A stretch of DNA of 64,000 bases from Octopus sinensis. Lineage: Eukaryota. Below the pieces are notes generated by a model that was not told where the DNA came from, ran no database searches, and saw nothing but the letters and a program-made list of their open reading frames with translations. The stretch covers positions 8,556,001-8,620,000 of the forward strand of contig NC_043003.1 in the NCBI RefSeq assembly GCF_006345805.1, written 5' to 3'. The first letter of the stretch is position 1, and each line of letters opens with the position of its first letter. The translations under genes and the position numbers were made by a program. Shown here one piece after another: positions 8,317 through 32,374 of the stretch.

Positions 8317-8320
8317 ATAT

Positions 8321-10519: not shown

Positions 10520-10760
10520 ATCTCTCGTTGAGAGTTTTTAAAATAGTAATTTTCTAATTTACTGATAGACTCAATCCTGGTTCTTGTGTATATTTAGCAG
10601 ATCTTTCTGGCATACATTTGAGTTTGGTCTGAACCTCAAGATCGAGGATAACTTCATCTTCACTCCCAACAGTCTCGGTGGCCTGGAGTAAATCACGGGT
10701 ACTTGCTTTTCGTATTAACTTAGTGATTAGAAAATATATCATCGTCTTTAGCAAGACAAC
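10520..10760 (-). mobile_element. Very decayed LINE RT fragment
   Basis: EDEVIL..KLKCM..AKYTQEPGLSLSVN*KIT weakly resembles ADD..L..GL.IN.KKT. Confidence 0.35.
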
Positions 10761-11029
10761 AAAATATGACTGTCACTATATCCATCTGAAAATCACTTAC
10801 GGAGGAACACTTTATGTTCTTTAGAACCGGATGAGCGCTGGTTAAATAAGTAAACATTCTTATCAAAGGCATAACCATCTCGTCTTTTCTGATAGTTTAT
10901 GTCATTCTACACCATCCAGGATGTCTTCGTTTTTAAAGAAGATAGAAACTTATTTCGAGGTGTAATGGCTTCTGCTGACCAAGAGACTACTCAAAGGCTA
11001 CGTCTATAAGTTTCAAAGTCTGACCAATA

Positions 11030-11653
11030 CGAGGGAGTGTTCCTGGCTTTAAGGTTCCTGGCTTTAAGGGTATCACGAAAGGCCTGGTTGGAGGCCTAAC
11101 TTTCTGAGTTCTTCTACTGGGCTTAGAAAAACTGAAGTGCCTCTACAATAAGTGTGTGAATCTGAGGGGGGAATATCTTTATATATAAAAGTCAAGTTGT
11201 GTGTCTATCTCCTACGATTTAGATTCCTAACTACTCCCACATTTTCCGGTGCAGTTTAACCAAAACCGGGTATCTTATAGTCGTGATTCATATCGAGCCC
11301 TTCTGGGTATTAGCGCGCGTCTACGATGAGTCTACGATTTAAAAAAAAACTTACCATCATTTTTTTCCATTTTAATGCATTTTTTTCGCTATTATATAAG
11401 GGAAGTAACTCTCTAAAAATGTCTACGATGAGTCAACGATTTAAAAAAAAATTTACCATCATTTTTTTTCCATTTTAATGCATTTTTTTGCTATTTTTGG
11501 CTATAACTCTCTAAAAATGCTTATATAGTTATTTCCCTTACAAACCCGAGCAACGCCGGGCGATACAGCTAGTGTAATAATAAAATCATAATTAACTGAT
11601 TCTCTTGTATTTTCTTTTACCCAAAGTCAGGAACTTTTCAGCACCCCTTCGTG
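11030..11653 (+). mobile_element. Mariner-derived MITE split by the Helitron
   Basis: TA-flanked TIR-like ends and a residual transposase C-terminus (NKCVNLRGEYV*). An uninterrupted relative lies at ~46343-46515. Confidence 0.75.
11176..11572 (+). mobile_element. Non-autonomous Helitron
   Basis: 5' TC, 3' CTAG, subterminal hairpin cccgagcaacgccggg, inserted at A|T with no TSD. Confidence 0.9.
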
Positions 11654-12132
11654 TATTGTGAGACGAAAAGCGCACATGAACCCGTATTTTCTCTCCTCAC
11701 CCCCCTCTCTCTCTGTATATATGACATATATACCAGTGTGTATGTGTGTATGTATGGTTATATGTGCATGTCTTTATATATAAATAAACCGGTGTTGTTG
11801 TTTACGTAACCTTAAACTACATAATTTCGTGTTTCGACAAACGGAATGCTTAAATAAAGGCCTGACTGAAATTACTGGGGTAGATGGGATTGGTTAATAT
11901 CCATAAAGGTTGTGATCTAAAATGGTCGTAGTTCAATGATTAACACCCATTAAACAATAAAAGATTTATTCGATCGACTAATCAGATTCCATTTACAATA
12001 ATAATAAAAAAACTCAGTGAACCAATATTCCTGAAAAAAAAATAATAGTACTAAATACCTGAGAAGCCTTGCTCAAATATGGCTTCTCGGGTATTTAGTA
12101 CTACATTAGAGTATGGCATAGCAACTACTCAC

Positions 12133-12357
12133 CGCTTGTAAGATTCTCATCCAGGCTGTATTCTCTACAGGGTAGTGTAAAGGACTGAATATCATGGCCA
12201 TCTAGCATAAATGTCATTGGCGTTTCTGTAGAAAAGACCTTGATTTCCGTTAGATGTGAAGTCATTGACCAAATCTTTATGTGGATTCCTTTGTTATATT
12301 TGCAGAAAACATTTGGTATTAGAAAATGCGTCCCACTTGACTGATCGCATAGTGATC
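12133..12357 (-). CDS. Coding exon 3 (225 nt): (G)SLCDQSSGTHFLIPNVFCKYNKGIHIKIWSMTSHLTEIKVFSTETPMTFMLDGHDIQSFTLPCREYSLDENLTS+G
   Basis: Acceptor gttttctctccag|GA and donor AGCG|gtgagt, stop-free, phase 1-1. The S-G-T-H-F motif resembles the start of FCGBP-like N-termini. Confidence 0.85.
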
Positions 12358-14543
12358 CTGGAGAGAAAACAATGATAGATGAAACTTTAATTATAAAATA
12401 AAATTAAAAATGATTTTTCTGTTTTTGCAGAAGGACGGATGCGGCATTGAACCAACGACCACTGCATACACAGGTATTATTTGATCACTCTCTAATGGTT
12501 AGCACGCCGGACAAAATGCTTAGTGACATTTTTCCGGCTTTACATCCTGAGTTCAAATACCGCCGAGGTCTACTTTGCCTTTCATCCTTTCGTGGTCGAC
12601 AAAATAAGTACTAGTCAATTTCTGGAATCGACGTAATCGACTTAATCCCTTCCCTCAGAATCCCAGGCCTTGTGCCTATAGTAGAAAGCATTGTTATATA
12701 TTCTCTTGTCGGGAGGGGCTGAGTGGAACACAATGTTTGTTTCAACGGAATATTTTTTCACAAGTTAGTCTAAAGTTTTCAGAAATCTATACAAAATAAT
12801 AAATAAAAATAGGTGTAATCGATATGGTTGCAGTTCAATTTGAATATCATTCGGTCGATGTCTCAAAAAAAAGAGCAAAAAGAAAACGTTGATCGCAAAT
12901 CTGATGATAAAGAATTGGGGTAAATGTTTATCACAAAGGGTGAATGCTGAGACACTGTAACAGAAAAACGAGTGGGAGAGATTTGATGTCTTGCAAACAA
13001 CTTGCACATGCAAGTGCTACCACTCAAAATCTCCGCATACCGGAAGCCAGCAAGTATATGGGATCATCAGGAGAGAATGCGCGCCGTTTCGGGGCCTACC
13101 TCTCGACGGCATCAATGCGCACCGGCCCCCCCTCACTGATATGAGGCCCCGCTTGCTAGATCAGCTGGTTATCAAATAAAGCTCAATATTCTTCTAGCCA
13201 CCGCTCATCGCCTCTTTTTAACCAAATCCAGTGGCTAGCCGTCTCCACTGTAGATTGGGTATCGGCCATGGTGGTATTGACTTTACGATGAGTTAGGCCT
13301 AGCGATAACAACAGTCCAAAGCAGAAATATTTAGGTTGGTCTGATCGTCTATAAATTTTATGATTAATTCATGTAAATTTGTAACAAAATGACAACAGAC
13401 AGAGCACATAATATCACAGTACATGTAAGAGTAATAAACGTGAAAGCGGTTTTAATCAGGTGGGACCACTGCGTATTATAATACCTTCTAAAGCCGTCTG
13501 ATTTTCAACATGGCCACGCATTTGTTCCGCAACAGATTTCCTAATTGTATAGGATGAAAGCATCAATTTACTGATGAAGGTTTTTCTAAATATCAGAATG
13601 TTTCAAAATGCGTGGTAGAGTTCTGGTAATATCTATGCAACGGTTCTGCTTTTACACTCATAAATATCGCAGACTACATTTAAATGAATGCATCATCACT
13701 CACCATCAGGTTCCAATCACTAACTGTTTCTTTTCTCTCTTTTATCAGTAATGTTGCTGTAACAGCTTTTGAATCTCTGGAGTAGCTCAATCAGAGCCCC
13801 CACCCACACAATTTCACTTTGTTTTTGTCTCTTCTCACATTAACTTTTAAAATATGATGCGTAATCCACGTATTAATCACTTAATCTATCTATCCCTTCT
13901 TATATATGAAGCTCTGTGCTATCACTCATTCACTGTCTACAAATTTATTGTTGTTACAATAAATCATGGGATGAATAACCTGCAAATCTTTGACCGCACG
14001 AGGCCCGTGTGGCCATTTAGTGCGGTGTTCTGGAAGAAGTATGAATTTTGTATTAAAATATACATAATTACGTATGACTAAAAATATTCAGATCTTTCTA
14101 ATGAGTAAGAAAAACACCAAATATGTATATTTTGTGCATCTTCTTTCTTTCTTTTTCGTGTGATTTCAAATTCAAAATTCTAGTCTCACCAAGATTTATC
14201 TAGAAGTGATTATCTTCCCTTATAATAACTGGCCACCAGGGCAGGTTACATCTTTATATTTTTCATTGCATATTCTAACATTTACATTTTGACAATAGTT
14301 ATAAATGCATTTTGTACTTATTATTTGATAATATTCTTTAATAAAACCATATTAAATTCCTTTCAAATATAAAATGGTTCTCTATACCCATGTAGTAAAT
14401 AAACGTTTGACTTTCAACCTACATTCTAACCAGTCAACTAACAGTCCAACTTAATACTAACATAAAAATATATGGAACTATATTAGTTTTAATCAGACTA
14501 AATATTTTCATCAAATACTTTAAGTATTTGGATTTTAAATATT

Positions 14544-14757
14544 CTTCTCTACTATAAGCACAAGGCCCGAAATTTTGGGGCAAGGGAGCCAGTCGTTTAC
14601 ATCGATCCCAGTACGCAACTGGTACTTCATTTATCGACGCTGAAAGGATGAAAGGCAAAGTCGACCTCGGCGGAATTTGAACTCGGAACGTAACGACAGA
14701 CGAAATACGGCTACGCATTTCGCCCGGCGTGCTAACGTTTCTGCCAGCTTGCCGCCT
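14544..14757 (-). mobile_element. SINE family B with 19-bp TSD
   Basis: TSD tatttggattttaaatatt at 14525-14543 and 14758-14776. Confidence 0.92.
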
Positions 14758-15857
14758 TATTTGGATTTTAAATATTGACAAACGTAATTCATTCTTCCTT
14801 TTGCTTATGCTCTGAGAAACCCCAGACAACTGAAAAATTTGTGACTATTGTAATTGTACACATTCTAAGATTTCTTTCACTATTTTAGGTTTTGCAGTGG
14901 TAATATGTGACAGGTAATGGTTTTGTCAGGCAAAGGAAGGTAGCAATTATGTCCCTTGTCAACGGCTCTGAAACTGTTGAGTGAAAGGAAAAGTGGAAGT
15001 TCTTCTCAAACTGGTGGCGTCGCCTGAATGTTTATAACTAAATAGACACCATTAAAGGCATCAAGAGGTAAAATATCAGTGGTAAGGGGTGGAGCTCATA
15101 CGCTGTAGCATCACGTCTTTGCATCTACCATTTGTTGGTGATTGCCTACTCCTGGTGGATGACACCTTTGGCCCACTCAGGTGTCAACTCTTCAACCCAT
15201 GAGTCTGTTTTTGCGTAGTCGTTGCTGGTGAGGCTTTACGAGGGCTAGCGTAAATACTTCCTCGACCTCTTTCAGTCCCTTTTACGACACGCAGAAGAAG
15301 CGTTGGATCCATTCTTTAGCATGCCGGTCTCCACACACCAACTTAAAAATGAAGCGTTTTGCGCTAGAATACAACACGCCACCCAGTCCAAGAATTGAAC
15401 CCAGGACCTAGCGATCGTGAGGGCAAAACCCAAACCACTAGGCTACACACTTGCTCTTCAATTATACTCAGTAAGATCTTGATAAGAAAATATGGAGTGC
15501 TCTGCCAGCAACTCTCAACGAATTTCTTATTATCAAGGATTCTGTAAACCAAGCTCTTTTTTTTTTATTAATAGACTCGGATTATTTTCTAAAGCCAGTT
15601 TAATATATACGGTCGACAACTTTTATAAATACACCGTATTCTAGTATCACATTGCTTTATAAACGATGCAGGAGCAGCACAATATGGTTCACCTTTATCA
15701 TCATATTCCTCCTCCTCCTCCTTCTTTTTCTCTTCCCCTTCCTTCCTCCGCATTGTCGATATCATCCTCTTTATCGTCATCTCTCCTACTACCGTTTATA
15801 ATCTAATGTATTAGTCAACTGCTTGATACCCACAGAGAATAAATCCTATTTAATTAC

Positions 15858-15902
15858 CTTTAAAGTGGTACGCCAAACATAATCCGATGCTCATGGTAAA
15901 CA
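15858..15902 (-). CDS. Coding exon 2 (45-nt micro-exon): (L)FTMSIGLCLAYHFK+G
   Basis: Acceptor tttatttttcag|TG and donor AAG|gtaatt, phase 1-1, open frame, hydrophobic core. Splices in frame to the exon starting at 12357. Confidence 0.75.
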
Positions 15903-16483
15903 CTGAAAAATAAATGGAAATCCATCAGACACAAGTATTGCAATACGAACAAGCAGACACAAATCTACATCAAAGCAGCAAGTAGCACGATCAAATCCAA
16001 TGACACGTAACACAGAATGGTTTCGCAATACGCCGAGGTCCACTTTGCCTTTCGTGATTGATAAAATAAGTACCAGTTGAGCACTAGGACACTAGGACTC
16101 AACCTTTGTCCCCAAATTTCTTGCCTTGTGTCAAAATTTGAAATCAATATTTATAAACGAAGCATCACATCCTCATTGAAATACAAAGGTAATATAGATA
16201 TAAATATAAAATAATAAATGCTCCTTTTTAAAGCCTAGCCAGGCTCATGGGCCCGGTTTCCCGGTTACTATGGCGTATGTGTTCCCCAGCTGGACGGGAC
16301 GCCAGTCCATCGCAACGTTACTCATTTTTGCCAGCTGAGTGGACTGGAGCAACGTGAAATGAAGTGTTTTGCTCAAGAACACAATGCATCACCCGGTCCA
16401 GGAATCGAAACCACAATCTTATGATCATGATGCTGACACCCTAACAACTAAACCACAGGCCTCCACATAGACATAAATACGGA

Positions 16484-16916
16484 TCTATAAAAAAAAACGG
16501 ATCAATAACCTATAATATAAATTGGACATGGGCGATCGTTGTTTTCTTTCTTATCGTGAGGTTCACAGCCAAACGCCCGGGTGGATTCGCATGAAAAATG
16601 GCACACGTGTAGAGACGGGTGCATAGATTGGAATGCAGTTTGTATTTTTTACTTAGACCCCATACTTACCGAGAAAATCGATTAAAAATTTTCTAATGGA
16701 ATTTCCCTCTTTCTTCTGCCATTAAAACAACCAGTTGCTTAGAAGCTGTTTTCTGACGGGGTGGGGTCAGGAATTTTCATATTGTTGGAGGCTCCAACCG
16801 AAACAGGGGACCCGAAATGATAAGGTTGACAAACGCTGTTATAGATTATGCCTAACCGAAAACGATCACAGCCACATCATCCAAACAGACCGGGTGAAAC
16901 GAGGCTTAGCTGCTAG
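16484..16916 (+). mobile_element. Probable second non-autonomous Helitron family
   Basis: A|TCTATAAAA start, degenerate hairpin ccgggtgaaacgagg, and CTAG|T end. Confidence 0.55.
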
Positions 16917-17538
16917 TATAAGTATAAATATAAACGATCAATAATAGACAAGGAAACCCTTTACAAAGAAGGCTTCAAGGATTCTTTTCAAACAACACAG
17001 GAAAATAGAATATAATTATAGAAACATGTTTCCTTACTCAACAGAAAACAACATTCTTTCTAATTTTCAAGGCCCGTAGAATTTCAGGGGTAAAGGTTAG
17101 TGGATAACCCTTAAGCTTGGCTGGTACTAATTTTCTTATTTTGTGCGCCGATCCTCACCTGTGGTCATGAATGTTAGGTAACAACTGACCGGGTACGATC
17201 GCACATAAAAACAGCCGCAACGGGATTCCTGCTACGAAGGATGCTTGGAGTAACGTCCTTGGACTGGGTGTGTAGCTCGTAGAAGAGAAAGTCTCTGCAG
17301 GTCGAATCGCTACATGTAAGATTCTAGAACAGATATCACGAATGCTTTGATTTATTTCTCTTTTATTTTCCCTCTTATATCAGCATGACTAAGCCACCTT
17401 TTAAGGAAATTGAGACCAGTTGCATATGTTTATGAGAATTTAATTACTTTCCTTTTTTTAATCCATGATAATGTTCTCAAACCACGTTTTTTTTCCTTTT
17501 GTTTCATAAGGTATATCTACTCGTGTAAAAACCGCTTA

Positions 17539-17588
<50 letters not shown>

Positions 17589-17607
17589 GTATACATGATG
17601 CGTATAC

Positions 17608-17640
<33 letters not shown>

Positions 17641-17661
17641 ATATATATGTGTGTATGTATG

Positions 17662-17712
<51 letters not shown>

Positions 17713-17750
17713 CTATCTATCTATATATATATATATATGTGTGTGTGTGT

Positions 17751-17790
<40 letters not shown>

Positions 17791-18749
17791 ACACCTTGTA
17801 CGTGGATACTGAAAATTCTTCATTGAACTTTATATTTTCTTAAGACATAAAATGTCCATTAAATTCTTTATATGAGAATATATTGTCGTACTTCTAAGTA
17901 TTTGGGGAGATCACTGGCCATGCTAGATTAAGAACATTGAACCGCATATATCTACGTTTTTATGCTTATCTTCAATTAAATCAACATTACTCACTGGTAT
18001 GACTACTGTGCGTTACACAAATCGTTTAAAACATGCAATCTAAATTTTTCTGAGCTAAATTGTTTTCGCAAAGCAAAGAGACAGATTCAATCTCATTGAC
18101 AGAACAAGCCACGGAGTAAGAAGTTGCTACGTAAGAAACTAAAATAAAGCTAATTAGATACTCGTTGTGGTACTAGATGTGTAGCTTTAGTCCTCTGCCG
18201 TTTCAATATTTATTTGAAAGCCTAAGCGAAGTCGTCCATCATCTATTAGAGAATGGAAGAAAATGGCTAAACGTTTTGCTGTCATCGAAGACCAATCCTG
18301 ACTTTATTGATACGCCTACGCCGATGTTTACGCGGTTTTTCGCCTTTGAACCTCATTAATTTCTTGCCAATCACATCTATAAAACTGTTGAAATTTCGTT
18401 TATTGATAAGAAAGATTTGTATTATTCACAGAAAAGACATTTAATTGCTTCTGAGTCAAGCTCTTAGCAACGTCGCTGCTTAGCTAGCTGTTACAATCGT
18501 TCTTGGGAAGAAGAGGACAGAATTTTCAGTTTGGTCAATAGAGAAAAGATTTTCTAGGTTCATACTTTAAATACACTGTATGGAAAAAAATGAACATTTC
18601 AAGTTGTGCATCAAGGATCGACTGAGCTCTTAAACAAACACGGACACGCGCACACATGCAGACACTACATACATACATACATACATACATACATGCATAC
18701 ATACATACATACATATATACATAGTTCCGTGCGTTGGCACTTATCAAAG

Positions 18750-18818
<69 letters not shown>

Positions 18819-19068
18819 GGGTCAGTTGGGCACCGTCTGTGAGAAAAGCAGTAATTCACTCTGCTAGAAATTTGGAAACGACATGCTGCACTGTTTGGCA
18901 CAATCAAATTCAAACAACGCGCATGCGCGAAATTGGGGAACACATACGCCATAGAAACCGGGAACCCGGGCCCATGAGCCTAGCTAGGCTTTAAGGGGCG
19001 CATTTATTATTCTACATTATATCTATATTACCTTTGTATTTCGATGAGGATGCGATGCTTAGTTTGTA

Positions 19069-19184
<116 letters not shown>

Positions 19185-20829
19185 GAATGTGTTTTATGTC
19201 AGGTTGTATAAAAAAACTATTTAACATAAATTGCTCAATACATTTAAGTAGAGTACATGCTTATTAAAGTTTTTACAAGGACAGGAGTGATAGTGACTTC
19301 GCAGTCTCGTCCTGCTATCTTTCATCGGATAGTCCGACGTAGGTCAGCTGGCCGAATCGTCGGAGTCAGTCTCATCCCTCTTCTTGTAAAATTTTGATAA
19401 ATGAGTAAATACACACACTCACACACATGCACACAAGAGCCCCCTTGTGTTTGTGTAATTAAAACCAAAAATAACATACGTGTACACACTCATACAGGTA
19501 TATGTGCTATATGCACATGTGTGTGTGCGTTTACTGTCTTTCTAATTTTTTAATTCTTCCTATAAAATTAGATGTTTACTAACAGAGAAATAAAATTCTA
19601 TCACCGGAATTTTAGATAATAAAAATAAGGTAAATAAATGAATGATAAAGTTACATGTTGAATTTAAGGTAATGTTGTTCCGATATCAGATTGAACTGAC
19701 AGAGAGCATGTTAACTAGAACATTTTGATGACCCGAAAAATTGAGAATGTCGAGATCTTTACTTAATCACTTAGTAACATAACGAAGTGTATAAATGATC
19801 GTGGATGTATATCTACATTATTACCAATGTACACACACACACACACACAGTACACTCGCATGTAAGATAAATTTCTTCACTTATAGATCTTTATATGATC
19901 ATACCAAATTGTTGTATATGTACATATATATATATATGTGTATGTGAGTATAAATACATACGTTTATATGAATACAAAAATTGAGACACACACACGTGTG
20001 TGTGTGTATGTGTGTGTGAGTGTGTGTGCGCGCACAAAATGTCTGCAAAGTATATACTATGTATGTACCTCATCATCAAAGTTAATGACTTAACCTGAAG
20101 TAAGTTATGAAACAACTGTAACCAAACGGAAATATCAAATCTTCTTTTGCTTTTCATGTTTCTTGCTCCTTTCCTCTTTTGCTTATTATATACTCCACTA
20201 TGAAGGAATACTGCTCTGTTTCTCCCAGATTTTCAAAGCATAGTTATCTTAAATTATGTCGTAATTTCATTGATGTGTGATATGATAGCCAGTTCCTCAG
20301 CCAGAATGGTTACCGTGATTTCTCCGAATCTGGCAAAGTGGCAGAACCGTTAGCATAACGAACAAAATGCTTAGCTCAATTTCGTCCTTGTTTACGATCT
20401 GTACCGTTCATCATTTAAGGGTCGATAAAATAAGTACCAGATGAACACTGGGGTCGATGTAGTCGACTTACTCCCCTCCTGGTGAGTGCTCAACACCGAG
20501 TTCATGGATAAAGATGCTTTATTTCTGTATTAAGGCTACCATTTGTTTCATGTTAAGGAAGTACCTTAATATTTCAACAATTTTTCAAGCCGATCACACG
20601 GAGGAATGATTTTTGCTTCCATTTTGAAGTGAGAGTGTGTGTGTGTGTGTGCGCGCGCGCCTGTGTGTGTATGTGTGTGTGTGCGCGCGCGCGCGTGTTT
20701 GTGTGTGTGTGTGAAAGTAAGTACTTAAGTAATTATTAACTCATATTTGCAGACTGTTATCAACATGTAAAATTTGAGATTTGAAGCTGTGTTCGTCAAG
20801 CGATTTGGTCGGCCCCGAATATATATATA

Positions 20830-21342
20830 CTAGCAGTATCGCCCGGCGTTGCTCGGGTTTGTAAGGGAAATAACTATATAAGCATTTTTAGAGAGTTACT
20901 TCCCTTATAGATGCCAATTCGGGCTTTCTTAGCCATTTCTGTTTTGGTGTCTTCAAGCCATGAAGTCGTTGTTCTAAAAGAACGCTGGTCTCCTTGACAA
21001 CGCTTTACGACGTTGATTTCCTTACACTCCCTTCCCCACAGCTTCACGAGGGAGGGAAGAAGGGTGAGAGGCAAACAGGTGCAGGTGTGACCATGGACGC
21101 CAACTCCGCCGCTATCGACACACGAAAAATTATGCATTAAAATGGAATAAAAAATGATGTTAAATTATTTTTTAAATCGTAGACTCATCGTAGACGCGCG
21201 CTAATACTCAGACGGGCTCGATATGAATCACGACTATAAGATACCCGAATTTGGTTAAACTGCACCGCAAAATGTGGGAGTAGTTAGGAATCTAAATCGA
21301 AGGAGGCAGACACTCACACAACTACAGTTTTATATATATAGA
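20830..21342 (-). mobile_element. Non-autonomous Helitron, same family, different interior
   Basis: Same termini and hairpin, with a distinct ~220-bp internal segment. Confidence 0.9.
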
Positions 21343-22275
21343 TATCCAATCTTAAAAATATACCTGTTTTTAGATATAACTTTACTTCAGCCAAGTTTAA
21401 CACAATCAAATATATATTAGGCTAATTTAACTTCAGCGAAGAGATAAATAGCACAATATTATCTTCGCGAATTATTATTTATGGCTGAATAATCTCTCTT
21501 TATGTCAGCTATTCTGCCATGAAATCCCTGATGAGGTGGAAATTAGCTTATTTATAGACAAAAATAGGATGAGGCGGATAACTGTACATTCAAAAATTTT
21601 GATGTAATTTTATACATAAATTCTATACGTTAATCGCATCCTTTTAACTTTTATCATTTACTTCTTTATAGCAACTGGACTGCGGCCATGATGGAGCACC
21701 GTCTTGAAAGGAGTTTTGGTGGAACAAATTCACACCAGTACTTCTAAGTCAGATGCTTATTCTATCGGTCTTTTCTGCCGAACCCCTACGTTACAGAGAC
21801 GAGAAGAAACCAAGTGGTGGTGGTGGTGGCGGCGGTGGTGATGGTGATGGTGGTGGTGATGATGGGGGGGTGATGGGGTGATGACAATCCCAGACACAAA
21901 GACACACACACACACTCATAGACATTTATTTAATTCACTCACAAGTCATGGTAGGCCCAGGGTAGTCTCTCGCCCAAGCTGTGGCGCCAGGGGACGGAAA
22001 CTGGAACTACGTGGTTAAAAGCGAGCTTCTTAACCACAAACCATTCCTGGTCACATTCATTACTGTGACGTTATCTAAGTAAACTAAATGTTGTCGGCAT
22101 GGCAACGAATGAATCTTTGACTAATTATTATGGCAGTCGCTTGCAGGAATCCGTTATATTACAACATACAATTGCCAAGTGGAATAAACTGGATTGCAAT
22201 GAGGAAGATACCGAATAAACACATAGCTATCTCCAATTCGATTTTCATGCCTATCTTCACGTATTGTGAAGAATA

Positions 22276-22675
22276 GGCGCAGGAGTGGCTGTGTGGTAAG
22301 TAGATTGCTTACCAACCTCATGGTTTCGGGTTCTGTCACACTGCGTGGCACCTTAGGCAAGTGTCTTCTACTAGAGCCTCGGGCCGACCAAAGTCTTGTG
22401 AGTGGGTTTGGTAGGTGGAAACTGAAAGAAGACCGTCGTATATATGTACATATATGTATGTGTGTGTTTGTTGTGTCTGTGTTTGTCTCCCCAACATCGC
22501 TTGACAACCGATGGTGGTGTGTTTACGTCCCCGTAACTTGGCTGTTCGGCAAAAGAGACCGATAGAATACTAGGCTTACAAAGAATAAGTCCTGGGGTCG
22601 ATTTGCTCGGTTAAAAGCGGTGCTCCAGTATGGCCACAGTCAAATGACTGAAACAAGTAAAAGAGTAAAAGAGTA
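22276..22675 (+). mobile_element. SINE family A
   Basis: Same head, body and aagagtaaaagagt tail. Confidence 0.9.
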
Positions 22676-22685
22676 ATGTTTGTTA

Positions 22686-23305
22686 ATCCCTTCTACAATA
22701 GGCACAAGACCTGAAATTTTGGGCGAGGTGGGGGACAGTCGATTAGATCGATCCCAGTACGCAACTGGTACTTAATTTATCGATCCTGAACGGATGAAAG
22801 GCAAAGTCAACCTCGACGAAATTTGAACTCAGAACGTAAAGACAAACGAAATGCTGCTAAGCAATTCGCCCGGCGTGCTAACGATTCTTATTTCTTTATT
22901 GCCCACAAGGGGCTAAACATAGAGAGGACAAATAAGGACAAAGGGATTAAGTCGATTGCATCGACCCCAGTGCGTAACTGGTACTTAGTTTACCGACCCC
23001 AAAAGGATGAAAGGCAAAGTCGATCTCGGCGGAATTTGAACTCAGAACGTAACGGCAGACGAAATATCTATTTAGATTTCTTTACTGCCCACAAGGGGCT
23101 AAACACAGAGAGGACAAACAAGGACAGACAAACGGATTAAGTCGATTATTTCGACCCCAGTGCGTAACTTGTAGTTATTTAATCGACCCCGAAAGGCTGA
23201 AAGGCAAAGTCGACCTCGGCGGAATTTGAACTCAGAACGTAACGGCAGACGAAACACGGCTACGCATTTCGCCCGGCGTGCTAACGGTTCTGCCGGCTCG
23301 CCTCC
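22686..23305 (-). mobile_element. Three tandem family B SINEs
   Basis: Same units and junctions as the 5257-5878 cluster. Confidence 0.85.
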
Positions 23306-23324
23306 TTGAAGAATGTTTGTTAAT

Positions 23325-23550
23325 GACGAAAGAATACGATTACAAATGTAAGTGGCCGAAATGGGATTCCTCGGAAGGACTTCTAGAGTAATGTTACTCA
23401 ACAGGGTGCGTAACTCAGAGATCAGAGCGTCTCTGCAAGTTGTGTCTCTGCTTCTCCGCATTGACAGGTTACATCTCCGGTGCGATGAACATGGGATTAG
23501 AATGTTGCAGGAAAGGATCACAATATGAATCCTTGAAGCCGAGCCAACCG
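23325..23550 (+). mobile_element. RTE-clade LINE RT C-terminal fragment
   Basis: VAEMGFLGRTSRVMLLNRVRNSEIRASLQV..LLLRIDRLHLR resembles the RTE pattern AAEM.FLRR..DRVR...IR. Confidence 0.75.
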
Positions 23551-23886
23551 TCACAAGACCTAACGGTTGACGATATCCTTAGTCTCACTTGGTCACGCTT
23601 TCCACCACCCCCTAGTTTCACTTATTGAACTACAGCCATGCTGATGCACCGCGTGGAAGGGTCTTGTCAAACAAATCAAGCCATAACACTTTGTTTTAAA
23701 AGTCTGGTACTTATTATATCGGTCTGTTTTACCGAACTGCTAAGTGTAAGGGGGCAAGCACAAATACAATAGTATACATGCATACAAACATACATACATA
23801 CATACATACATACATACATACATGCATGCATGCATGCATACATACATACATACATACATACATACATACATACATACATACAACTA

Positions 23887-24060
23887 GGAAGGAGAAAGCT
23901 AATTCGAAAACTACAGATTCAATCCATAACTGGAACTGTAAAATTCTGTAAAACTTTCCAGAAGTTTCTCATTTAAATATATATGAGCATGTCTACATAA
24001 GCAGCTATATGCATAAGAATGCATACATAAAGCAAAACATACAAATTTAAACATATACAT
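23887..24060. repeat. ~170-bp direct repeat, second copy at ~25055-25225
   Basis: aaggagaaagctaattcgaa..gcaaaacatacaaat occurs twice, about 1.17 kb apart. Confidence 0.8.
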
Positions 24061-24117
24061 ACATACATACACATACACACACACATACATACATACATAC
24101 ATACATACATACATACA

Positions 24118-24192
<75 letters not shown>

Positions 24193-24735
24193 TAATATAA
24201 ATACGTTCCCTAGTAGTAGCTTTACCCGCAGTGAATTATTCACTGCAGCCCTTCGCTTCAGGAGTCTCTTAGCGCGCCGGAACCAAGACATTTGAAATTT
24301 TATTCCCGATGTAATCAGTAAGACTAAGCACGTGTCTGTCTTGACACAGAGAGCTGGGGTTAGTCTTTCAGTTTGCATCTCGAGGACCGAATGTACTGAA
24401 GAAGTCACGGACACTTGAATTATGCAAGTAATTCTTTTGTTAAGACCGAACCGAGGTATGTATTTAAGTCTGTTTTTTATTTAATTTTTCATATGTCCTG
24501 CCCGCCAAATTTGGTTCTGGTGTTCGCTGAATTCTTCCTCTAGAGAATTTCCCTTGTAGTTTGATCGTTGATGATCTATTTCTAGCATTCTGGCCGGCTA
24601 CCTAGCAGGCCAGCCCTGCCAATACACATATATTTGAATTTTCTCTGACTCCTCAGATTTTTTGAATGCTGGACTACTGGTTTTAATTGATATTAAAATT
24701 AATATTAATTTATCTCCCTCAATTTTTAATATATA

Positions 24736-24776
<41 letters not shown>

Positions 24777-25254
24777 ATGATGGCTGCCCCCTCGTTATCG
24801 AGTATGGTCATTGCACGAATCTTAACTATTATTGGTGCTGTGATCGAATGTGACTTTTTAGCCCAGCTAAGGATGTTAACATAAAGCTGAAGCTCAGTAA
24901 AAAAGAGAACACCTATGCTGAACTACTGAGAAATCTGCTGTTACTCTATCCAGATTACAAGATCAGGTTTATACCTGTAATTTATTGGGGCCCTGGGATA
25001 TGTAACACACTGCCTAAATACCAATCTTGAGAAATTAGTCTTCTCAAAACCTGAAAGGAGAAAGCTAATTCGAAGACTACAGATCCATTCCATCACTGTA
25101 ACTGTAAAAATCTGTAAAACTTTACAAAAGTCTATCATTTAAATATATATGATCATGTCTAGATATGCAACTATATGCATCAGAATACATACATAAAGCA
25201 AAACATACAAATCTGCACATATACATACATACATGCGCGCACAAACAAACACAT

Positions 25255-25290
<36 letters not shown>

Positions 25291-25293
<3 letters not shown>

Positions 25294-25447
25294 AGAATTT
25301 TTTAATAGATACGATAGAAGCACCAAGGCTGTGTAGATATTAGAGTATTTATATATAGATATCTATCTATAAATCTATCTATCTATAAATGCTCTAATAT
25401 CTACACAGACTTGGTGCTTTTATTTTATTACGCAAAAAAATTCTTAT
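25291..25447. repeat. ~155-bp imperfect palindrome next to (TA)n
   Basis: agcaccaaggctgtgtagatattagag / ctctaatatctacacagacttggtgct. Confidence 0.8.
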
Positions 25448-25624
25448 ATACACACGCTGACATAGAACCAACGTTGAACCCTTAATTCGCAATATTACCG
25501 AATCTGGAACCTAACTATGGTCTGTCTATAGCACTTATTCAGCATTGCCTGACACCTTTGGGTCTCAATGACACCATTATTTCTTATATATATAAGGCGC
25601 ATTATTTCTTATATATATATTATA

Positions 25625-25796
25625 GGCGCAGGAGTGGCTGTGTGGTAAGTAGCTTGCTAACCAACCATATGGTGCCGGTTCAGTCCCACTGCGTGGCATC
25701 TTGGGCAAGTGTCTTCTGCTATAGCCCCGGGCCGACCAATGCCTTGTGAGTGGATTTGGTAGACAGAAACTGAAAGAAGCCTGTCGTATATATATG

Positions 25797-25846
<50 letters not shown>

Positions 25847-26048
25847 TGTATCTATGTTTGCCCCCCTAGCATTGCTTGACAACCGATGCTGGTGTGTTTA
25901 CGTCCCCGTCACTTAGCGGTTCGGCAAAAGAGACCGATAGAATAAGTACTAGGCTTACAAAGAATAAGTCCCGGGGTCGATATGCTCGACTAAAAAAGGC
26001 GGTGCTCCAGTATGGCCACAGTCAAATGACTGAAACAAGTAAAAGAGT
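25625..26048 (+). mobile_element. SINE family A
   Basis: Same head, body and tail. Confidence 0.9.
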
Positions 26049-26732
26049 ATATACTAAGACCTTTCATAGAGTTTCTTTCGACCAAATTCACACTCAAGTC
26101 TATGGTCGGCCCAAGGTTAAAGTAGAAGAATGCCTCACATTGGGACTGAACTCGAAACCCCGAGGTTGTAAAGTGAGCTTCTTAACCATACAGCTATGAC
26201 TACGCCTACGTATAAAGCTTTTTTCTTGCCGCAAACACAAGAGATTTTTCATCCGACATTACTTTGAACCGACATTCATATATCACAGGTCTTAAATCAA
26301 GAACACCAATATACCAAAGCAACATTTCAGTAAAATATTTAGCTTTATATTGTCTGTGTCTTTACTATTCCTCTGTTTTACTGCCATAACATTAACAGCT
26401 ATCGATTTTAAGAGCTTTCACGACGGTGATATTATCACGTAAATCGGTGACCGAATGGCATTAGAGGCAAATTTCCGGGCCATGCTGGTTAATTAGGCAC
26501 AGATCCAAATTTGGTATGCTCACGTGAAGAGGTTTTTAATGTTAATTCCCTTTCTAATTAATTTCAGTAATACCCTTGCTCACTTTCCTCTGTCAGATAC
26601 CATTTATCAACCTAACCTATTCAACCAGATTGCAGAGATAAAGGATTCAGCTCGTTATACAGTCACTTATCATAAAAGTTTTCATAAACTTTTTATACAA
26701 TAACTATGATTATTTAAGAGCATCTCTTCTTC

Positions 26733-27430
26733 TGTTCTATATTGAAGAGATGAGGAATTATTTACATTATTTACATTATTTGCATTTGACGGATATTTGT
26801 CTTAATCTTATTTATTGTTAACACAACGTTTCGGCTGATATACCCTCCAGCCTTCATCAGGTGTCTTGGGGAAATTTCGATCCTGTGTTCCCATTTCTTT
26901 GTTTTTAACAAAATGTTTTGGCTGATATACCCTCCAGCCTTCATCAGGTATCTTGGGGGAAATTTTGAACCTAGATTTTCATTCCTTTGTTGTTAACTCA
27001 ACGTTTCGGCTGGTATACCCTCCAGCCTTCATCAGGTGTCTTGGGAAATTTTCGAACCTGGGTTCTCATTCCTTTATTGTTAACACAACGTTTCGGCTGA
27101 TATACCCTCTAGCCTTCATGAGGTGTCTTGGGGAAATTTCAAACCTGGTTTCTCATTCCTTTGTTATTAACACAACGTTTCGGTTGATATACCCTCCAGC
27201 CTTCATCAGGTGTCTTGGGGAAATTTCGAACCTGCTTTCCCATTCCTTTGTTGTTAACAAAAGGTTTTGGCTGATACACCCTCCAGCTTTCATCAGGTAT
27301 CTTGGGGAAATTTCGAACCTGGGTTCTCATTCCCCAAGACACCTGATGAAGGCTGGACGGTATATCAGCCGAAACATTGTGTTAACAACAAACAAGATGA
27401 GGACAAATATCCGTCAAATGTAAATAATGT
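26733..27430. repeat. Array of six ~87-bp hammerhead units (minus) plus one inverted unit (plus)
   Basis: Reverse-complement cores at 26854, 26941, 27029, 27116, 27203 and 27290; plus-strand CTGATGA at 27343. Confidence 0.9.
26820..26865 (-). ncRNA. Minimal type I hammerhead motif, intact, sense to the host pre-mRNA
   Basis: Minus strand reads GACAC CTGATGA A GGCTG gagggtatat CAGCC GAAACGTT GTGTT. Confidence 0.7.
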
Positions 27431-28114
27431 AGCATCTTTTCTGTGCTCAATGTATCCGTAACGAAGTTCTCTACGGTCTCTGCATCTATGGCGTTGTACT
27501 TATTCTACCATAATTCTACCTCTTACTAATTGAAGTGTGAAGATGCCTGGTCTTGTGGTTAAGGTGTTGCACTAACAGTCACAGAATCGTGGTTTCGATT
27601 CCCAGACCCGGTGGTGCATGTTGTGTTCTTGGACATAAGTCATCATTTCACGTTGCTCCAGTCCACTCAGTCGTAACTGAATTCCATCAATAGCTGAGAA
27701 GTTAACCCGGCGACACACGGACAAGTGTTTTATTCAGGTTGTGAGAGTGTCGTAACATCAGTTATTTACACGATACAGAAAACTTTATGAGTCTTTGAGT
27801 TCATGACAGATCTTTGTTTGGGGTAACTTATTTCCTATTGCCGAGAGAAGTCTCCACAGCCGGCCCAAACTAAAGTAGGCTTGCTTCAATTATTTTACAT
27901 ATAACATAACGTGCACATGATTAAGGGTGGGATGTGTATCGGGTTTTGTTGTTTTTTCCTCCAGTACGAATTCGTACCTATTTCCCATCTATTTATGCTG
28001 AAGAGTAAAGAGCTAATTTCTTTGCCCCCCGACAATATCAAACATCAATGCGTTGCATTCTAACTACAATGCATTCTGACTGCAATTGTGCATCACATAT
28101 AACCTGATGTATAA

Positions 28115-28470
28115 GTGAAGGTCCAAGGCTCAGTGGTCAGAGCATCGGGCTCACAATCATGAGGTAATGAGTTCGATTCCCGGACCGAGCTGTGTGTTGT
28201 GTTCTTGAGCAAGACACTTTATTTCACGTTGCTCCATGAAATGAGTAGAAATGAGTTGCGATGTCACAGGTGCCAAGCTGTATCAGCCTTCGCCTTTCCC
28301 TTGGATAACACTGGTGGCGTGGAGAGGGGAGGCCGGTATGCATGGGCGGCTGCTGGTCTTCCATAAACAACCGTGCCTGGGAGGGAAACTTTCTAGGTGC
28401 AATCCCATGGTCAGTCATGACCTTAGGGTGTCAGTCATGACCTTAGGGTGTCAGTCATGACCTTAGGGTG
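28115..28470 (+). mobile_element. SINE family D (tRNA head + tgtgttcttgagcaagacactt CORE-like motif) ending in a 3x 20-bp tandem
   Basis: A and B boxes present; tail (tcagtcatgaccttagggtg)x3 at 28411-28470. Relatives at ~16230-16465, 34134-34450, 47439-47900, 58555-58885 and 61790-62010. Confidence 0.8.
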
Positions 28471-28722
28471 TCTTCTTCTTTCCAATATCGTAATACCTAT
28501 TTTGAAGAAATTTTACTACAAAGAAATGTAATACTAAACAACGGGGCAAAACTGTTTAGTTCCTAGTGTTTCTCTTTGAGCCTTTTAATCTAAAGTGTTA
28601 CTGCCTTTGTGAAATTTATAATCCTAAACAGCACAAAATTTAAATCATTACCAAAGAACGGGTTTCATAATAACATCCTAACTCCTCCTCCCCAGACAAA
28701 TATATTTGCGTGTCAGTATTCT

Positions 28723-29068
28723 TGTCAAGCGATGTTGGGGGAACAAACACAGACACACAAACACAGACACACATACATACATATGTACGTACGTACATAC
28801 ATGCATGCATGCATGCATGCATTCATACATGCATGCATGCATACATACATACATGCATGCATGCATACATACATACATACATACATACATACATACATGC
28901 ATGCATGCATGATGGGCTTCTTTCAGTTTCCGCCTACGAAATCCATTCACAAGGTTTTGGTCGGCCCGATGTTATAGTAGAAGGCACTTGCCTAAGGTGC
29001 CACGCAATGGGACTGAACCCGGAACCATGTGGTTGGTAAGCAAACTACTTACCACCCAGCCACTCCTA
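28723..29068 (-). mobile_element. SINE family A, lacking the 3' part
   Basis: Head and body present, with internal (CATG/CATA)n. Confidence 0.85.
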
Positions 29069-29699
29069 CGTGTATGTATATAAAAATATAAAGAAACATA
29101 TCTATCTAATAAAGAAACATATATACATTATAATGCGATGTTGTATAAACAGAGACTAGTAATAACCACATAATTTACTTGGATATTGCAACTTTTAAGA
29201 TTTCGAAGTCCTTCAAAGTCTTGTCCAATATTTCCTTCAATTTTTCCCTTATTTAATGGCAGGAAAGAACAGCTAATAATGGCTAACTAAGACTTGAAAA
29301 TTACTGGACCAATAAAATAGATATAGTCTACTATTTTATAGTTTATGATTAACCTCGTTATTACATCCCATTTCGCCTCTTTATTACGTTTATTTAGTTA
29401 TGCAATTAGTGGCTTACTCCTGACTCTTGAAACGAAATATTTGGATATTGGTGTATCCACTGAAAGAGTGGTTTTGTGGTTGTACTGTGAAAACGCTCGC
29501 TTTACAAGCATGTGGTTTCGGGTTCCACTCCACTCTGCTGCACTTTGGGGTGAATGTATCTTATAATAGCCCTGGGCCGACTTTGGTGCTTTGCGGATGA
29601 TTTTGGTTGACCGAAAAATGTGTTTCACTGACTCGCATAAATATATATGTATGTGTGTGTGTGTGTGTGTTTGTTTGTGTGTGTTTGTGTGTGTGTGTT

Positions 29700-29731
<32 letters not shown>

Positions 29732-30013
29732 AGTGTATGTGTGTGTATTAAAGGCGGAGGCGTAGATGTGTGCTAAGAAGCTTGCTTCTAGACCACATGG
29801 TTCCTGGTTCAGTCTCACTGCGTGGCATTTCGGACAAAAGTCTTTTACTATAGCCCTGAGCCAACCAAAGCCTTATAAGTGGATTTGGTAGACGGAAACT
29901 GAAAGAAGCTCGTCGTATATATATATGTGTGTGTGAATGTGTGTGTGAATGTGTGTGTGTGTATAGATATCGCGAGATTGGTTCCTGACTAAAAGTCGTT
30001 ATTGGGTACAATA

Positions 30014-30329
30014 CAGCAATCCCTCGCCACATCGCGGTTCCCCTATCTCAGTTCTCCTATCACAGCTTATTATCTAAGCATATACTCTCTCTTTCTCTCT
30101 CTTTTACTCTTTACTCTCTTTTACTTGTTTCAGTCATTTGACTGCGGCCATGCTGGAGCACCGCATTTAATCGAGCAACTCGACCCCGGGACTTATTCTT
30201 TTGTAAGCCCAGTACTTATTCTATCAGTCTCTTTTTGCCAAACCGCTAAGTGACGGGGACGTAAACACACCAGCATCGGTTGTCAAGCAATGCTAGGGGG
30301 ACAAACACAGACACACAAATACACAAACG

Positions 30330-30367
<38 letters not shown>

Positions 30368-30703
30368 TACGACGGGCTTCTTTCAGTTTCCGTCTACCAA
30401 ATCCACTCACAAGGCTTTGGTCGGCCCGAGGCTATAATAGAAGACACTTGCCCAAGGTGCCACGCAGTGGGACTGAACCCGGAACCATGTGGTTGGTAAA
30501 CAGGCTACTTACCACACAGCCACTCCTGCGCCTATGTTGATTTCTCTATAGTGTTGTTTCGCATTTATAATAAAATAAATATATACAAATTATAAAACTA
30601 ATTTTAAAATATATACAGTACAGTACTGTTTTTACTTTGCAGATTTTCACCTATCGCTGGTGGGGAGTGAAATGCAACACACAGGATAGTCGAGGGATTA
30701 CGG
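30014..30703. mobile_element. Tigger/pogo-like MITE containing a SINE
   Basis: TA-flanked TIRs cagcaatccctcg / cgagggattacgg. Confidence 0.65.
30085..30532 (-). mobile_element. SINE family A nested in a Tigger-like MITE
   Basis: Full-length copy between the two arms of the 30014-30703 element. Confidence 0.9.
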
Positions 30704-31596
30704 TATAATAATTTCTAATTTTAATACAAAGCCAACAAGTCTGAAGCGGGGAGTTAATCGATTACATCGATCCCACTGCTCAATTATTACTTTTTAATCG
30801 ATCCTGATAAGGATCAAAGACGAAGTCGAGACCCGGCGGAATTTGAAATCTGAACGTAAATTCGAAAGAAATTCCACTGTGCATTTTGTCCGGCGTGCTA
30901 ACAAGTCTGACAGATCACCGCCCTTCATTATCTGCACTACAGGTGCAGGTCATGAAATTTTGCTGGGGAAGGGCTAACCGATTACTTCAACTTCAGTGCT
31001 CTGCTTTACCTATGTTTTCGTCCCCGAAAGGATGAAAGGCAAAGTCGACCTCGACAGAATTTGAACTCAGAGCGTAGAGAACTTAGAGAAACACCACCAG
31101 ACATTTTCCTCAACGTGTTGACGATTCTGCTTACAGCATAATGCTTTCTAATTTCGAGGTTGGGTATTAGTTGATTACATTTGCCCCAATATTAAGCTGA
31201 TACTTATTTTATCAACCCGAAAAGAGTGAAAGGGTAAAGAGACGTCGACGGCATTTGAATTTAGAGCAGAGAACTGGAAGAAATGCCGCTAGACATGTTC
31301 TTCCTCGTGGCAATCATTCTGGAAACTCGCCGTCATATATTGGCCATATATTGGCTACAACATACTAATGGAAACCAGCTTGCGTTCCCCTTCTCGAATT
31401 AAATTTACTGTTCCGTGTTCATTAGCATTTAAGCCAAAAGTCGTGTGAGATACCTTAAAATTGTTCGAGCAGTACTGACAGTTGTAAAAGCTATGAGTTA
31501 TGTGAGAAATATTTCAATATCCTCCATATATGCAATTTCAAATGAGATTTCCACGCAATTCTCCATTGGGTTACATTTGCGCCAGTCACCACTCAC

Positions 31597-31621
31597 AAAT
31601 CAATTTACGAAAACTATTCAT
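31597..31621 (-). CDS. Coding exon 1 (start codon) of a secreted IgGFc-binding-domain-like protein: MNSFRKLI+T
   Basis: ATG at 31621 has A at -3 and an in-frame upstream TGA. The exon ends at donor T|GTGAGT (phase 1) and joins the 45-nt exon in frame to give a signal-peptide-like N-terminus. Candidate upstream acceptors would start the exon at 31784 or 31640. Confidence 0.6.
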
Positions 31622-32374
31622 TATTTCAAGTGTTCGTCAGCTGAAAAGCATTAAAGAAAATGGGCCGATATCTCGATAGTTCATTGTTGATGAGTCTTTT
31701 GTACTTATCCGAGATGATTGCCAAATTTAAACTAATAATCTAAAGGAGTACGTTTTCAAGATATATAACTGTTGTTCTATCTTCCTGGGAAAGGAAATTA
31801 GAAATATTTGCAGGGCTTAATGTAATTCAAATATTAAGCAGAACACAATGACTATAAATAAACGTACCGGAAACTGTGAGACGGTAAATATATGAATGGA
31901 ATTTTCATAACTTTGTGAAACATTAAATATTCATAGATTACATGTTTGTGTCTACAACCAGAGTGTAAACGGAATTATGTAATCAATTAATGTGAAGTAG
32001 TCTCTATGCTTCTGAAGTGGTATAGCTTTGAGATTTTGAGAATTGTGAAGGAGTGTGTGCATGATGTGTATTTGATGCTATGTACTTATATTCGTTCAAA
32101 TGAACACATACGCAAAACACACACACACGTGTATGTGTGCGTGTGTGTCTGGGAGAGAGAGAGAGAGAGAGAGAGTGAGAGAAAGAGAGAGAGAGCGACT
32201 GTGTATGTGTGAAAACATGTCTGGTTAAGAATTTCAATTTCCAACCACGTCGTTTCAAGTTCTAATCTTACTGCACGACACCAGAAGTACGTGTGATTCC
32301 TACATATGAAAACCTTGTCAGTAAATTTGGTACATGCAAACTATGTGGAACTTAATCGTACGAACACACACACA

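What the first reader, a model, noticed from the sequence alone, without database searches (positions are those of the whole stretch)
26733..27430. 87-bp hammerhead-only array in sense orientation inside an intron of the secreted-protein gene
Seen: six units trimmed to little more than the ribozyme and its 5' flank, on the same strand as the host gene (intron 15903-31596), followed by one inverted copy. Unit 1 is fully intact; units 3 and 5 keep the core with a stem mismatch; units 2, 4 and 6 have core mutations. Units 2 and 6 share variants (aacaaaa.gttttgg, ggtatc), as do units 1 and 5 (ttcccatt), implying a 4-unit higher-order duplication. Inferred: the same element was multimerised independently with a different unit length that still retains the whole ribozyme. 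Intact units could cleave the pre-mRNA, or pair with the inverted copy to form dsRNA.
Basis: partly seen in the sequence, partly recalled or inferred. Interest (0 to 1): 0.72.

Follow-up and report, generated by a model that had tools for sequence, protein, structure and literature searches.

The report
Decaying Penelope end-repeat hammerhead minisatellite
This is an old, decaying insertion of the end of a common jumping gene, in which an 87-base piece carrying a hammerhead-ribozyme motif is repeated six times beside a mirror-image copy; it is likely a harmless passenger of a kind already described, and its place inside an intron is unproven.

Summary
The array is real: six 87-bp units (26811-27333), each with a minimal Penelope-type hammerhead on the minus strand. 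The inverted copy lies 5' of the array in ribozyme sense, and an 11/12-bp target duplication flanks the composite.

The unit is a slice of the end repeat (pLTR) of a protein-coding Penelope-like retrotransposon; earlier notes of this scan found that on other DNA and I re-tested it. There are 761 exact copies of the motif, and a 5' inverted arm occurs at 33 of 60 sampled loci.

Retention of the whole ribozyme is not special: among arrays of three or more units, 6 keep it and 7 cut or lack it. Private mutations hit ribozyme positions at the neutral rate (7/26, expected 0.38). The stated intron donor (31596) is unsupported, and the host protein has a C-terminal membrane-like segment.

One mild surprise: a separate insertion 8.5 Mb away shares the 87-bp junction and two rare variants, so the multimer likely existed in a mobile source. 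This fits published non-LTR retrozymes born from pLTRs. Low interest.

The parts
27431..27442 (-). Target-site duplication, copy 5' of the composite (11 of 12 bases match the other copy)
27330..27430 (+). Inverted, 5'-truncated pLTR arm (positions 146-245 of a single reference copy), no tail; its hammerhead (27338-27383) has a broken stem III palindrome; joins the array through a 4-nt microhomology
27247..27333 (-). Unit 6 (hammerhead 27256-27301): G12, stem III and first stem I pair changed; type A variants shared with U2 and with L033
27160..27246 (-). Unit 5 (hammerhead 27169-27214): core intact, stem II mismatch; rare column-8 variant shared with U1 and L033
27073..27159 (-). Unit 4 (hammerhead 27082-27127): G5 changed, stem II mismatch; substrate half intact
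26986..27072 (-). Unit 3 (hammerhead 26995-27040): enzyme half intact, mismatch in the stem I 3' strand
26898..26985 (-). Unit 2 (88 bp; hammerhead 26907-26952): G12, stem III and first stem I pair changed; type A
26811..26897 (-). Unit 1 (hammerhead 26820-26865): intact minimal type I motif with extra A between 9 and 10.1 and loopless palindromic stem III; predicted cut after 26825
   Evidence: 761 exact copies genome-wide
26734..26810 (-). 3' end of the pLTR (to about 26772) and the one-sided 'tail', which is the start of the parent element's ORF region
26719..26730 (-). Target-site duplication, copy 3' of the composite
15858..15902 (-). Exon of the neighbouring IgGFc-binding-domain gene (holds the first Met of P0005); the donor of the intron upstream of it is unknown

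Best explanation
The locus is a fold-back insertion of the end repeat (pLTR) of a protein-coding Penelope-like retrotransposon, in which an 87-bp slice holding a minimal hammerhead motif stands in six decaying copies; it was likely pasted in by the element's own enzymes and is likely a neutral passenger today. Shown: the same repeat follows the C-terminal end of an RT-bearing ORF elsewhere and its tail runs into that ORF's start; inverted 5' arm, one-sided tail and target duplication are all present. Inferred steps: (1) a source copy gained an 87-bp internal duplication, possibly guided by a 7/8-nt near-match beside the junction, and one of its two units lost its core; (2) Penelope RT/endonuclease primed on both target strands and the two cDNAs joined at a 4-nt microhomology, giving mirror arms; (3) the sense arm grew to six units at or soon after insertion, by unequal exchange, slippage or repeated template jumps; (4) all units then decayed by about 5% with no sign of selection. 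Any cleavage would need two units folded as a dimer and is predicted to be weak.
For: Parent element: 29 of 30 loci of the ORF's C-terminal piece carry the repeat directly downstream; near-full-length copies have Pfam RVT_1 (E 1e-9) and an RT 31% identical to RTs linked to Pfam GIY-YIG hits. Footprint: inverted piece 5' of the ribozyme in 33 of 60 loci and 3' in 0 of 60; tail on one arm only in 23 of 28 fold-back loci; target duplication 11/12; the same inversion junction at 7 places, with the tail on either side. No selection on the unit: 6 whole against 7 cut or absent among arrays of 3 or more units, and the two longest (77 bp x61, 46 bp x50) lack a whole ribozyme. Neutral decay: 7 of 26 private substitutions in core or stems, 0.38 expected, p=0.31. 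Common source with L033: column 8 G is in 0 of 61 and column 76 T in 0 of 71 unselected copies, yet both are shared; L033 has its own 14-bp target duplication. Literature: inverted 5'-truncated copy and one-sided tail are typical (PMC8557442, passages); pLTR-derived tandem units of 51-972 bp, 42-44% of copies intronic in Xenopus, 8 of 9 tested dimers did not cleave (bioRxiv 10.64898/2026.07.22.740005, parts 1-3 of 5); PAc extends both strands and its ribozyme cut only with protein (PMC11167929, passages and second half of main text).
Against: Among periods over 110 nt, 19 of 23 duplications keep the whole ribozyme, although that range was searched mainly with a ribozyme anchor and most such units end at the standard pLTR end. 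The neutrality test has only 26 changes and leans, without significance, towards conservation (non-CpG 5 of 22 against 0.36, p=0.27). Intact enzyme halves (U1, U3) and substrate halves (U1, U4, U5) survive, so an active dimer is still possible on paper. The parent's endonuclease domain was not recognised by Pfam or by tblastn against 50 GIY-YIG loci; it is called from recalled motif likeness. The route from two units to six is not resolved.
Confidence: 0.72

Rival explanations
1. A newborn retrozyme: an 87-nt (or 4-unit, 348-nt) self-cleaved RNA circle was copied rolling-circle fashion by Penelope RT, so the array was written at insertion and the multimer spread briefly as its own non-autonomous element.
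For: Cut-to-cut distance is one unit; the unit start coincides with the 5' end of the sense arm; units are about equally diverged from each other and from the inverted arm, so array and insertion are of similar age; the junction occurs at three places, one inside a full head-bearing copy; the order A-B-x-y-A-B fits 1.5 turns on a 4-unit circle.
Against: One 87-nt circle would give identical units, but U6 and U2 share three changes the others lack, and that type is core-dead. Only 3 places carry the junction (pattern with 1 mismatch). Seven arrays of the same repeat formed without a whole ribozyme, so no circle is needed. PAc inserts uncut RNA in vitro (PMC11167929).
Confidence: 0.17
2. The array is kept because it cleaves, or forms dsRNA in, the host pre-mRNA and so tunes the gene.
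For: Same strand as the gene; U1 intact; U3 enzyme half with U1, U4 or U5 substrate half has no broken pair; a long hairpin with the inverted arm is predicted. An intron upstream of 15902 must exist, since P0002 splices there.
Against: Three of six cores are dead and decay is at the neutral rate. In the equilibrium model the inverted arm sequesters U1 (mean pairing 0.98). Hundreds of exact motif copies and many fold-backs exist, so nothing singles this one out. The intron's donor is unknown. Published min-HHRs cleave poorly even as dimers (PMC4209133, parts 1-2 of 4).
Confidence: 0.05
3. The link to L033 is DNA-level: ectopic gene conversion between two similar fold-back insertions on one chromosome copied the 87-bp dimer, with no second retrotransposition.
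For: Both lie on C7 and share the same inversion junction and the same tail side.
Against: They are 8.5 Mb apart with different flanks and target duplications; the same inversion junction recurs at five other places without the 87-bp unit; the first L033 unit carries the column 8 variant that U6 and U2 lack.
Confidence: 0.06

Closest known systems
Non-LTR retrozymes derived from PLE pLTRs (Li, Clavereau, Pollet, bioRxiv 10.64898/2026.07.22.740005, parts 1-3 of 5 read; Cervera and de la Pena 2020, PMC7229834, passages)
   Same: Head-to-tail units each with a type I hammerhead; homologous to a PLE end repeat; unit length inside the reported 51-972 bp; six units fits the report that 75% of families reach at most seven; the proposed birth route (pLTR, then local tandem growth) is what is seen here.
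   Different: Minimal rather than canonical hammerhead; no two neighbouring units are both fully intact; circular RNA not shown; only three places share the junction; host is an octopus, which I did not see treated in the parts read.
[quoted passage not shown]
   Same: Type I order, 5-bp helix I, extra base between 9 and 10.1, G10.1-C11.1 pair, loopless palindromic helix III, opposite-strand pairs 100-700 bp apart.
   Different: Helix II is 5 bp with a 10-nt loop, not 7-8 bp as in the Schistosoma families; here it is multimerised in an 87-bp unit.
Penelope/Poseidon-type PLE insertion units, e.g. PAc of Anolis (PMC11167929, passages and second half of main text; PMC8557442 and PMC8969392, passages)
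   Same: Inverted 5'-truncated copy at the 5' end, tail on one end only, hammerhead near the ORF start, repeat end about 120 nt into the predicted ORF (111-118 in PAc).
   Different: The predicted ORF starts about 30 nt before the ribozyme rather than at stem II; the parent pLTR carries a head with tRNA-like A/B-box motifs (recalled consensus; ARAGORN and Rfam gave no tRNA call), which this insertion lacks.
Schistosome SINE-like hammerhead repeats and newt satellite 2 (seen only as described in PMC6765202 and PMC7229834 passages)
   Same: Tandem hammerhead repeats in an animal genome; dimeric folding needed in the amphibian case.
   Different: Those units are about 300 bp with a promoter in each unit and are abundant transcripts; this unit has no promoter part.

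Membership tests
Minimal type I hammerhead (PLE type) | CUGANGA and GAAA boxes, helix II with G10.1-C11.1, helix I of 4-5 bp, UH site | tested here: met
   U1 complete; U3 and U5 core complete
Minimal type I hammerhead (PLE type) | Palindromic 15.2-16.2 region that allows a dimeric helix III | tested here: met
   Intact in U1, U3, U4, U5; broken in U2, U6 and the inverted arm
Minimal type I hammerhead (PLE type) | Match to an Rfam hammerhead model | tested here: not met
   No hammerhead family at gathering score or at E up to 10; my reading is that these models expect a closed helix III
Minimal type I hammerhead (PLE type) | Self-cleavage | not testable with these tools
   Folding cost of a double hammerhead is 12-41 kcal/mol here, but 14-19 in the intact 147-bp control, so the model does not discriminate
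PLE pLTR-derived insertion | Sequence is the terminal repeat of an RT-coding element | tested here: met
   Repeat follows the ORF end in 29 of 30 loci; RVT_1 in near-full copies; tail continues into the ORF
PLE pLTR-derived insertion | C-terminal GIY-YIG endonuclease in the parent | tested here: inconclusive
   No Pfam or tblastn match for the decayed domain; motif likeness is recalled; the RT is homologous to GIY-YIG-linked RTs
PLE pLTR-derived insertion | Inverted 5'-truncated copy at the 5' end, tail at one end | tested here: met
   Present here; 33 of 60 and 23 of 28 family loci
Non-LTR retrozyme | Tandem units each holding a type I hammerhead | tested here: met
   Six units, each spanning the motif
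Non-LTR retrozyme | Two consecutive units with complete motifs ('active' in the bioRxiv definition) | tested here: not met
   Units with intact cores are U1, U3, U5, never adjacent
Non-LTR retrozyme | Mobilised as its own unit | tested here: inconclusive
   One other insertion shares junction and rare variants; a third shares the junction only
Non-LTR retrozyme | Expressed as monomeric linear and circular RNA | not testable with these tools
   Only contigs of guessed RNA runs were on offer
Intronic regulatory ribozyme | Lies inside a spliced intron on the sense strand | tested here: inconclusive
   Strand matches; acceptor 15903 supported; donor not found
Intronic regulatory ribozyme | Purifying selection on core and stems | tested here: not met
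   7 of 26 private changes in critical sites against 0.38 expected; three of six cores dead; low power

The most novel reading that the evidence does not exclude
A retrozyme lineage caught at birth: a fold-back composite with an 87-nt hammerhead multimer became a non-autonomous element and was re-inserted by Penelope enzymes at least twice, possibly from a circular RNA. With some 45 other tandem duplications of the same end repeat, this genome would be a natural series for asking which pLTR slices turn into mobile retrozymes and which stay local minisatellites.
Probability: 0.3. Interest if true: 0.45.

Novelty: new member of a known kind. Interest (0 to 1): 0.18.

Why it matters
As one locus it matters little: it is a worn retrotransposon end among hundreds of exact and many more diverged copies. 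As data it gives an invertebrate example of the published idea that hammerhead tandem repeats arise from Penelope end repeats, and adds that the same repeat yields arrays without a whole ribozyme about as often, so a whole ribozyme in a tandem unit is not by itself evidence of function. If the multimer was mobile on its own, it would show how small a retrozyme monomer can be and make the rolling-circle model testable on a defined case. I saw no paper on this element's hammerhead in seven library searches; supplements and repeat databases were not seen and may already list it.

Tried and rejected
Rfam: no hammerhead in the window or the array, and no tRNA family on four head-bearing loci; ARAGORN found no tRNA in one head.

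RNA evidence: no RNA holder listed on record; 15 runs are only guessed to be RNA. The proposed first exon near 31597-31650 had no cover in contigs of 4 runs; a blank in contigs proves nothing.

First exon: six-frame scoring and a degenerate donor scan of the window plus 80 kb upstream found no good match to P0002's first 11 residues; a genome-wide pattern gave 1 hit on another contig, equal to its control.

Parent element: Pfam GIY-YIG hits (147; 50 loci examined) belong to other PLE families and none carried this repeat. The parent was found instead from sequence shared upstream of the head.

My first reading, a stand-alone tRNA SINE, was dropped once the head proved to follow an ORF end. That 87 is 29 codons starting 3 nt before the predicted start codon was considered and rejected as meaningful: stops occur in U4, U3 and after U1, and U2 shifts frame. 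Folding costs of the double hammerhead were not used as evidence because the intact control scores alike. A look-up of earlier notes by sequence gave nothing; the notes on permuted hammerheads concern other elements.

Full report
Observation. The window is G000:C7:8556001-8620000 of a 2.72-Gb animal genome; the neighbouring gene's named relatives are Octopus proteins. TRF finds 26811-27333, period 87, 6.0 copies. On the minus strand each unit holds 33 nt of flank, a 46-nt motif and 9 nt after it. The motif is a type I hammerhead with a 5-bp stem I, the CUGAUGA box, one extra A, a 5-bp stem II, GAAA and a loopless palindromic stem III; the predicted cut in U1 is after 26825. This matches the min-HHR described for Penelope-like elements, which needs two copies to fold (PMC4209133, parts 1-2 of 4). 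Rfam does not score it. The inverted copy (27330-27430) lies 5' of the array in ribozyme sense, and a 12-bp target duplication with one mismatch flanks the whole composite.

What the unit is. The intact 46-nt motif has 761 exact copies in G000. I fetched the first 65 listed places of the 761 as 60 stretches. An inverted piece of the repeat lies 5' of the motif in 33 of 60 and 3' in 0 of 60; a head with tRNA-like boxes is nearby in 37 of 60; two tandem ribozyme units occur in 2 of 60 (the script counted one, L232; L238 is seen in the listing). In 23 of 28 fold-back loci the tail is on one arm only. Both traits are described as typical of PLE insertions (PMC8557442, passages; PMC8969392, passages). 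I first read the repeat as a SINE. Earlier notes of this scan said it is the pLTR of a coding Penelope, so I tested that. Five of 65 head-flanking sequences share an upstream stretch that reads as a decayed ORF end. A search with it gave 42 matches among 40 scored of 2861 candidates, and 29 of the 30 loci returned carry the repeat directly downstream. Three extended loci show an RT; two pieces hit Pfam RVT_1 at E about 1e-9, and the RT is 31% identical to RTs linked to Pfam GIY-YIG hits. The tail sequence runs on into the ORF. The C-terminal domain was not recognised as GIY-YIG by Pfam or tblastn; that label is recalled from motif likeness. The head was not called a tRNA by ARAGORN or Rfam.

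Is a whole ribozyme per unit special? Five gapped searches with exact anchors in the ribozyme, its 3' half, the 5' flank and the 3' end, plus L033, gave 47 places. I dropped two (C26, no tandem; C25:10.23M, another family). Of 45, 24 repeat the whole motif and 21 cut or lack it (C3:4.13M and C23 were classed by hand, and C801 counted as two units). Periods under 46 nt cannot hold it (11 cases). Periods of 46-110 nt: 5 whole, three of them the same junction, against 6 cut. Arrays of three or more units: 6 whole (87x6, 147x7, 140x3, 134x4, 134x15, 220x4.5; the two 134-bp arrays share a unit and may be one locus) against 7 cut or absent (33x11, 77x61, 132x5, 29x10 or more, 46x50, 38x3, 30x3). Exact anchors see only little-decayed arrays, so all counts are lower bounds.

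History of this array. Units differ by 7-14 substitutions. Leaving out four columns shared with L033, 26 private changes remain over six units, about 5%; 7 fall in core or stems, against 0.38 expected (p=0.31; non-CpG 5 of 22, p=0.27). On the scale quoted for O. vulgaris (0.065 is 18 Myr; PMC13282606, passages) that is roughly 14 Myr, a rough figure. The 87-bp junction occurs at only three places: here, L033 (C7, 93.6 kb) and L036 (C10, inside a full head-bearing arm). L033 is an inverted arm plus two units plus tail, with its own 14-bp target duplication and the same inversion junction. It shares columns 8, 37, 68 and 76 with U1/U5 and U2/U6. Among copies not selected for exactness these states occur in 0 of 61, 3 of 71, 14 of 71 and 0 of 71. 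So the dead type A and the intact type B units predate this insertion, and the 'four-unit repeat' is better read as an A-B pair present twice. The inversion junction alone recurs at five more places without the 87-bp unit, with the tail on either arm, so it is a microhomology hot spot.

Could it cut? U1 and U3 have intact enzyme halves, and U1, U4 and U5 intact substrate halves, so five pairings have no broken pair. In the equilibrium model the inverted arm pairs with U1 (mean 0.98); in growing transcripts it pairs with U6, then U5. Forcing a double hammerhead costs 12-41 kcal/mol, but the intact 147-bp control costs 14-19, so this does not discriminate. Published evidence points to low activity: weak cleavage of min-HHR dimers (PMC4209133), no cleavage of PAc's ribozyme without protein and no reads ending at its site (PMC11167929, passages and second half of main text), and 8 of 9 Xenopus dimers inactive (bioRxiv 10.64898/2026.07.22.740005, parts 1-3 of 5; supplements not seen). 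Against that, PMC7229834 (passages) reports efficient cleavage for most invertebrate retrozymes with canonical motifs.

Host gene. The minus-strand exon near 626-1132 hits Pfam IgGFc_binding (E 3e-11). P0005 starts at 15894 and matches the window exactly in its first 60 residues. A 2790-nt contig of run X1 (RNA by guess) covers 12132-12356 with 473 letters upstream of it; bin depth suggests that about 45 of them are the small exon (my inference). So an intron ends at 15903, but its donor was not found, and the array is intronic only if that donor lies beyond 27430. P0002 and P0005 end in a hydrophobic 19-mer, which suggests a membrane anchor.

Verdict. A real, decaying minisatellite made from a Penelope pLTR slice inside an ordinary fold-back insertion. 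It works like the published route from pLTR to non-LTR retrozyme, but fails the 'two adjacent intact units' test for an active one. The shared source with L033 is the only feature beyond the ordinary. Seven library searches showed no paper on this element's ribozyme; PMC6962438 and PMC10886601 (passages) added nothing, PMC6765202 (passages) gave background, and Lunse et al. was seen only as cited there. Interest 0.18.

Noticed in passing
window 48281-49393: Second fold-back insertion of the same pLTR: inverted arm plus about seven 147-bp units at 97% match, younger, with adjacent intact-core units; a better candidate for dimeric cleavage than the 87-bp array.
   Followed up: partly
window 1239-1691 and 56576-56673: Two more copies of the same repeat: a head-bearing fold-back inside the 11-kb intron of the IgGFc-domain gene, and a truncated single copy.
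   Followed up: partly
L031 (G000:C508:11790-16500): 61 copies of a 77-bp unit that holds only the 5' half of the ribozyme, behind a full inverted arm.
   Followed up: partly
L045 (G000:C25:19674300-19674700): Eleven 33-bp units made of the two core boxes and stem II only, without stems I and III.
   Followed up: no
L083 (C18:2.49M) and L310 (C2661): The same 134-bp whole-ribozyme unit as 4 copies on a chromosome and 15 copies on an unplaced contig; may be alleles of one locus or a second mobile multimer.
   Followed up: no
L303, L304 (C1:206.75M; C9724): Near-full-length decayed parent element: inverted pLTR arm, ORF with RT, C-terminal domain, head, hammerhead; the predicted ORF starts about 30 nt upstream of the ribozyme and reads through it.
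   Followed up: partly
L141 (G000:C25:10227240-10227370): A 118-bp tandem pair of a different repeat with a similar palindromic stem III motif, probably another PLE family's ribozyme.
   Followed up: no
L149, L150, L253 and related loci: A separate, young GIY-YIG PLE family with 760-880-codon open frames and no copy of this repeat nearby.
   Followed up: no
window 530-15902 and L181: The IgGFc-binding-domain gene continues beyond the window start and ends in a membrane-like segment; predicted N-termini differ between the named proteins.
   Followed up: partly
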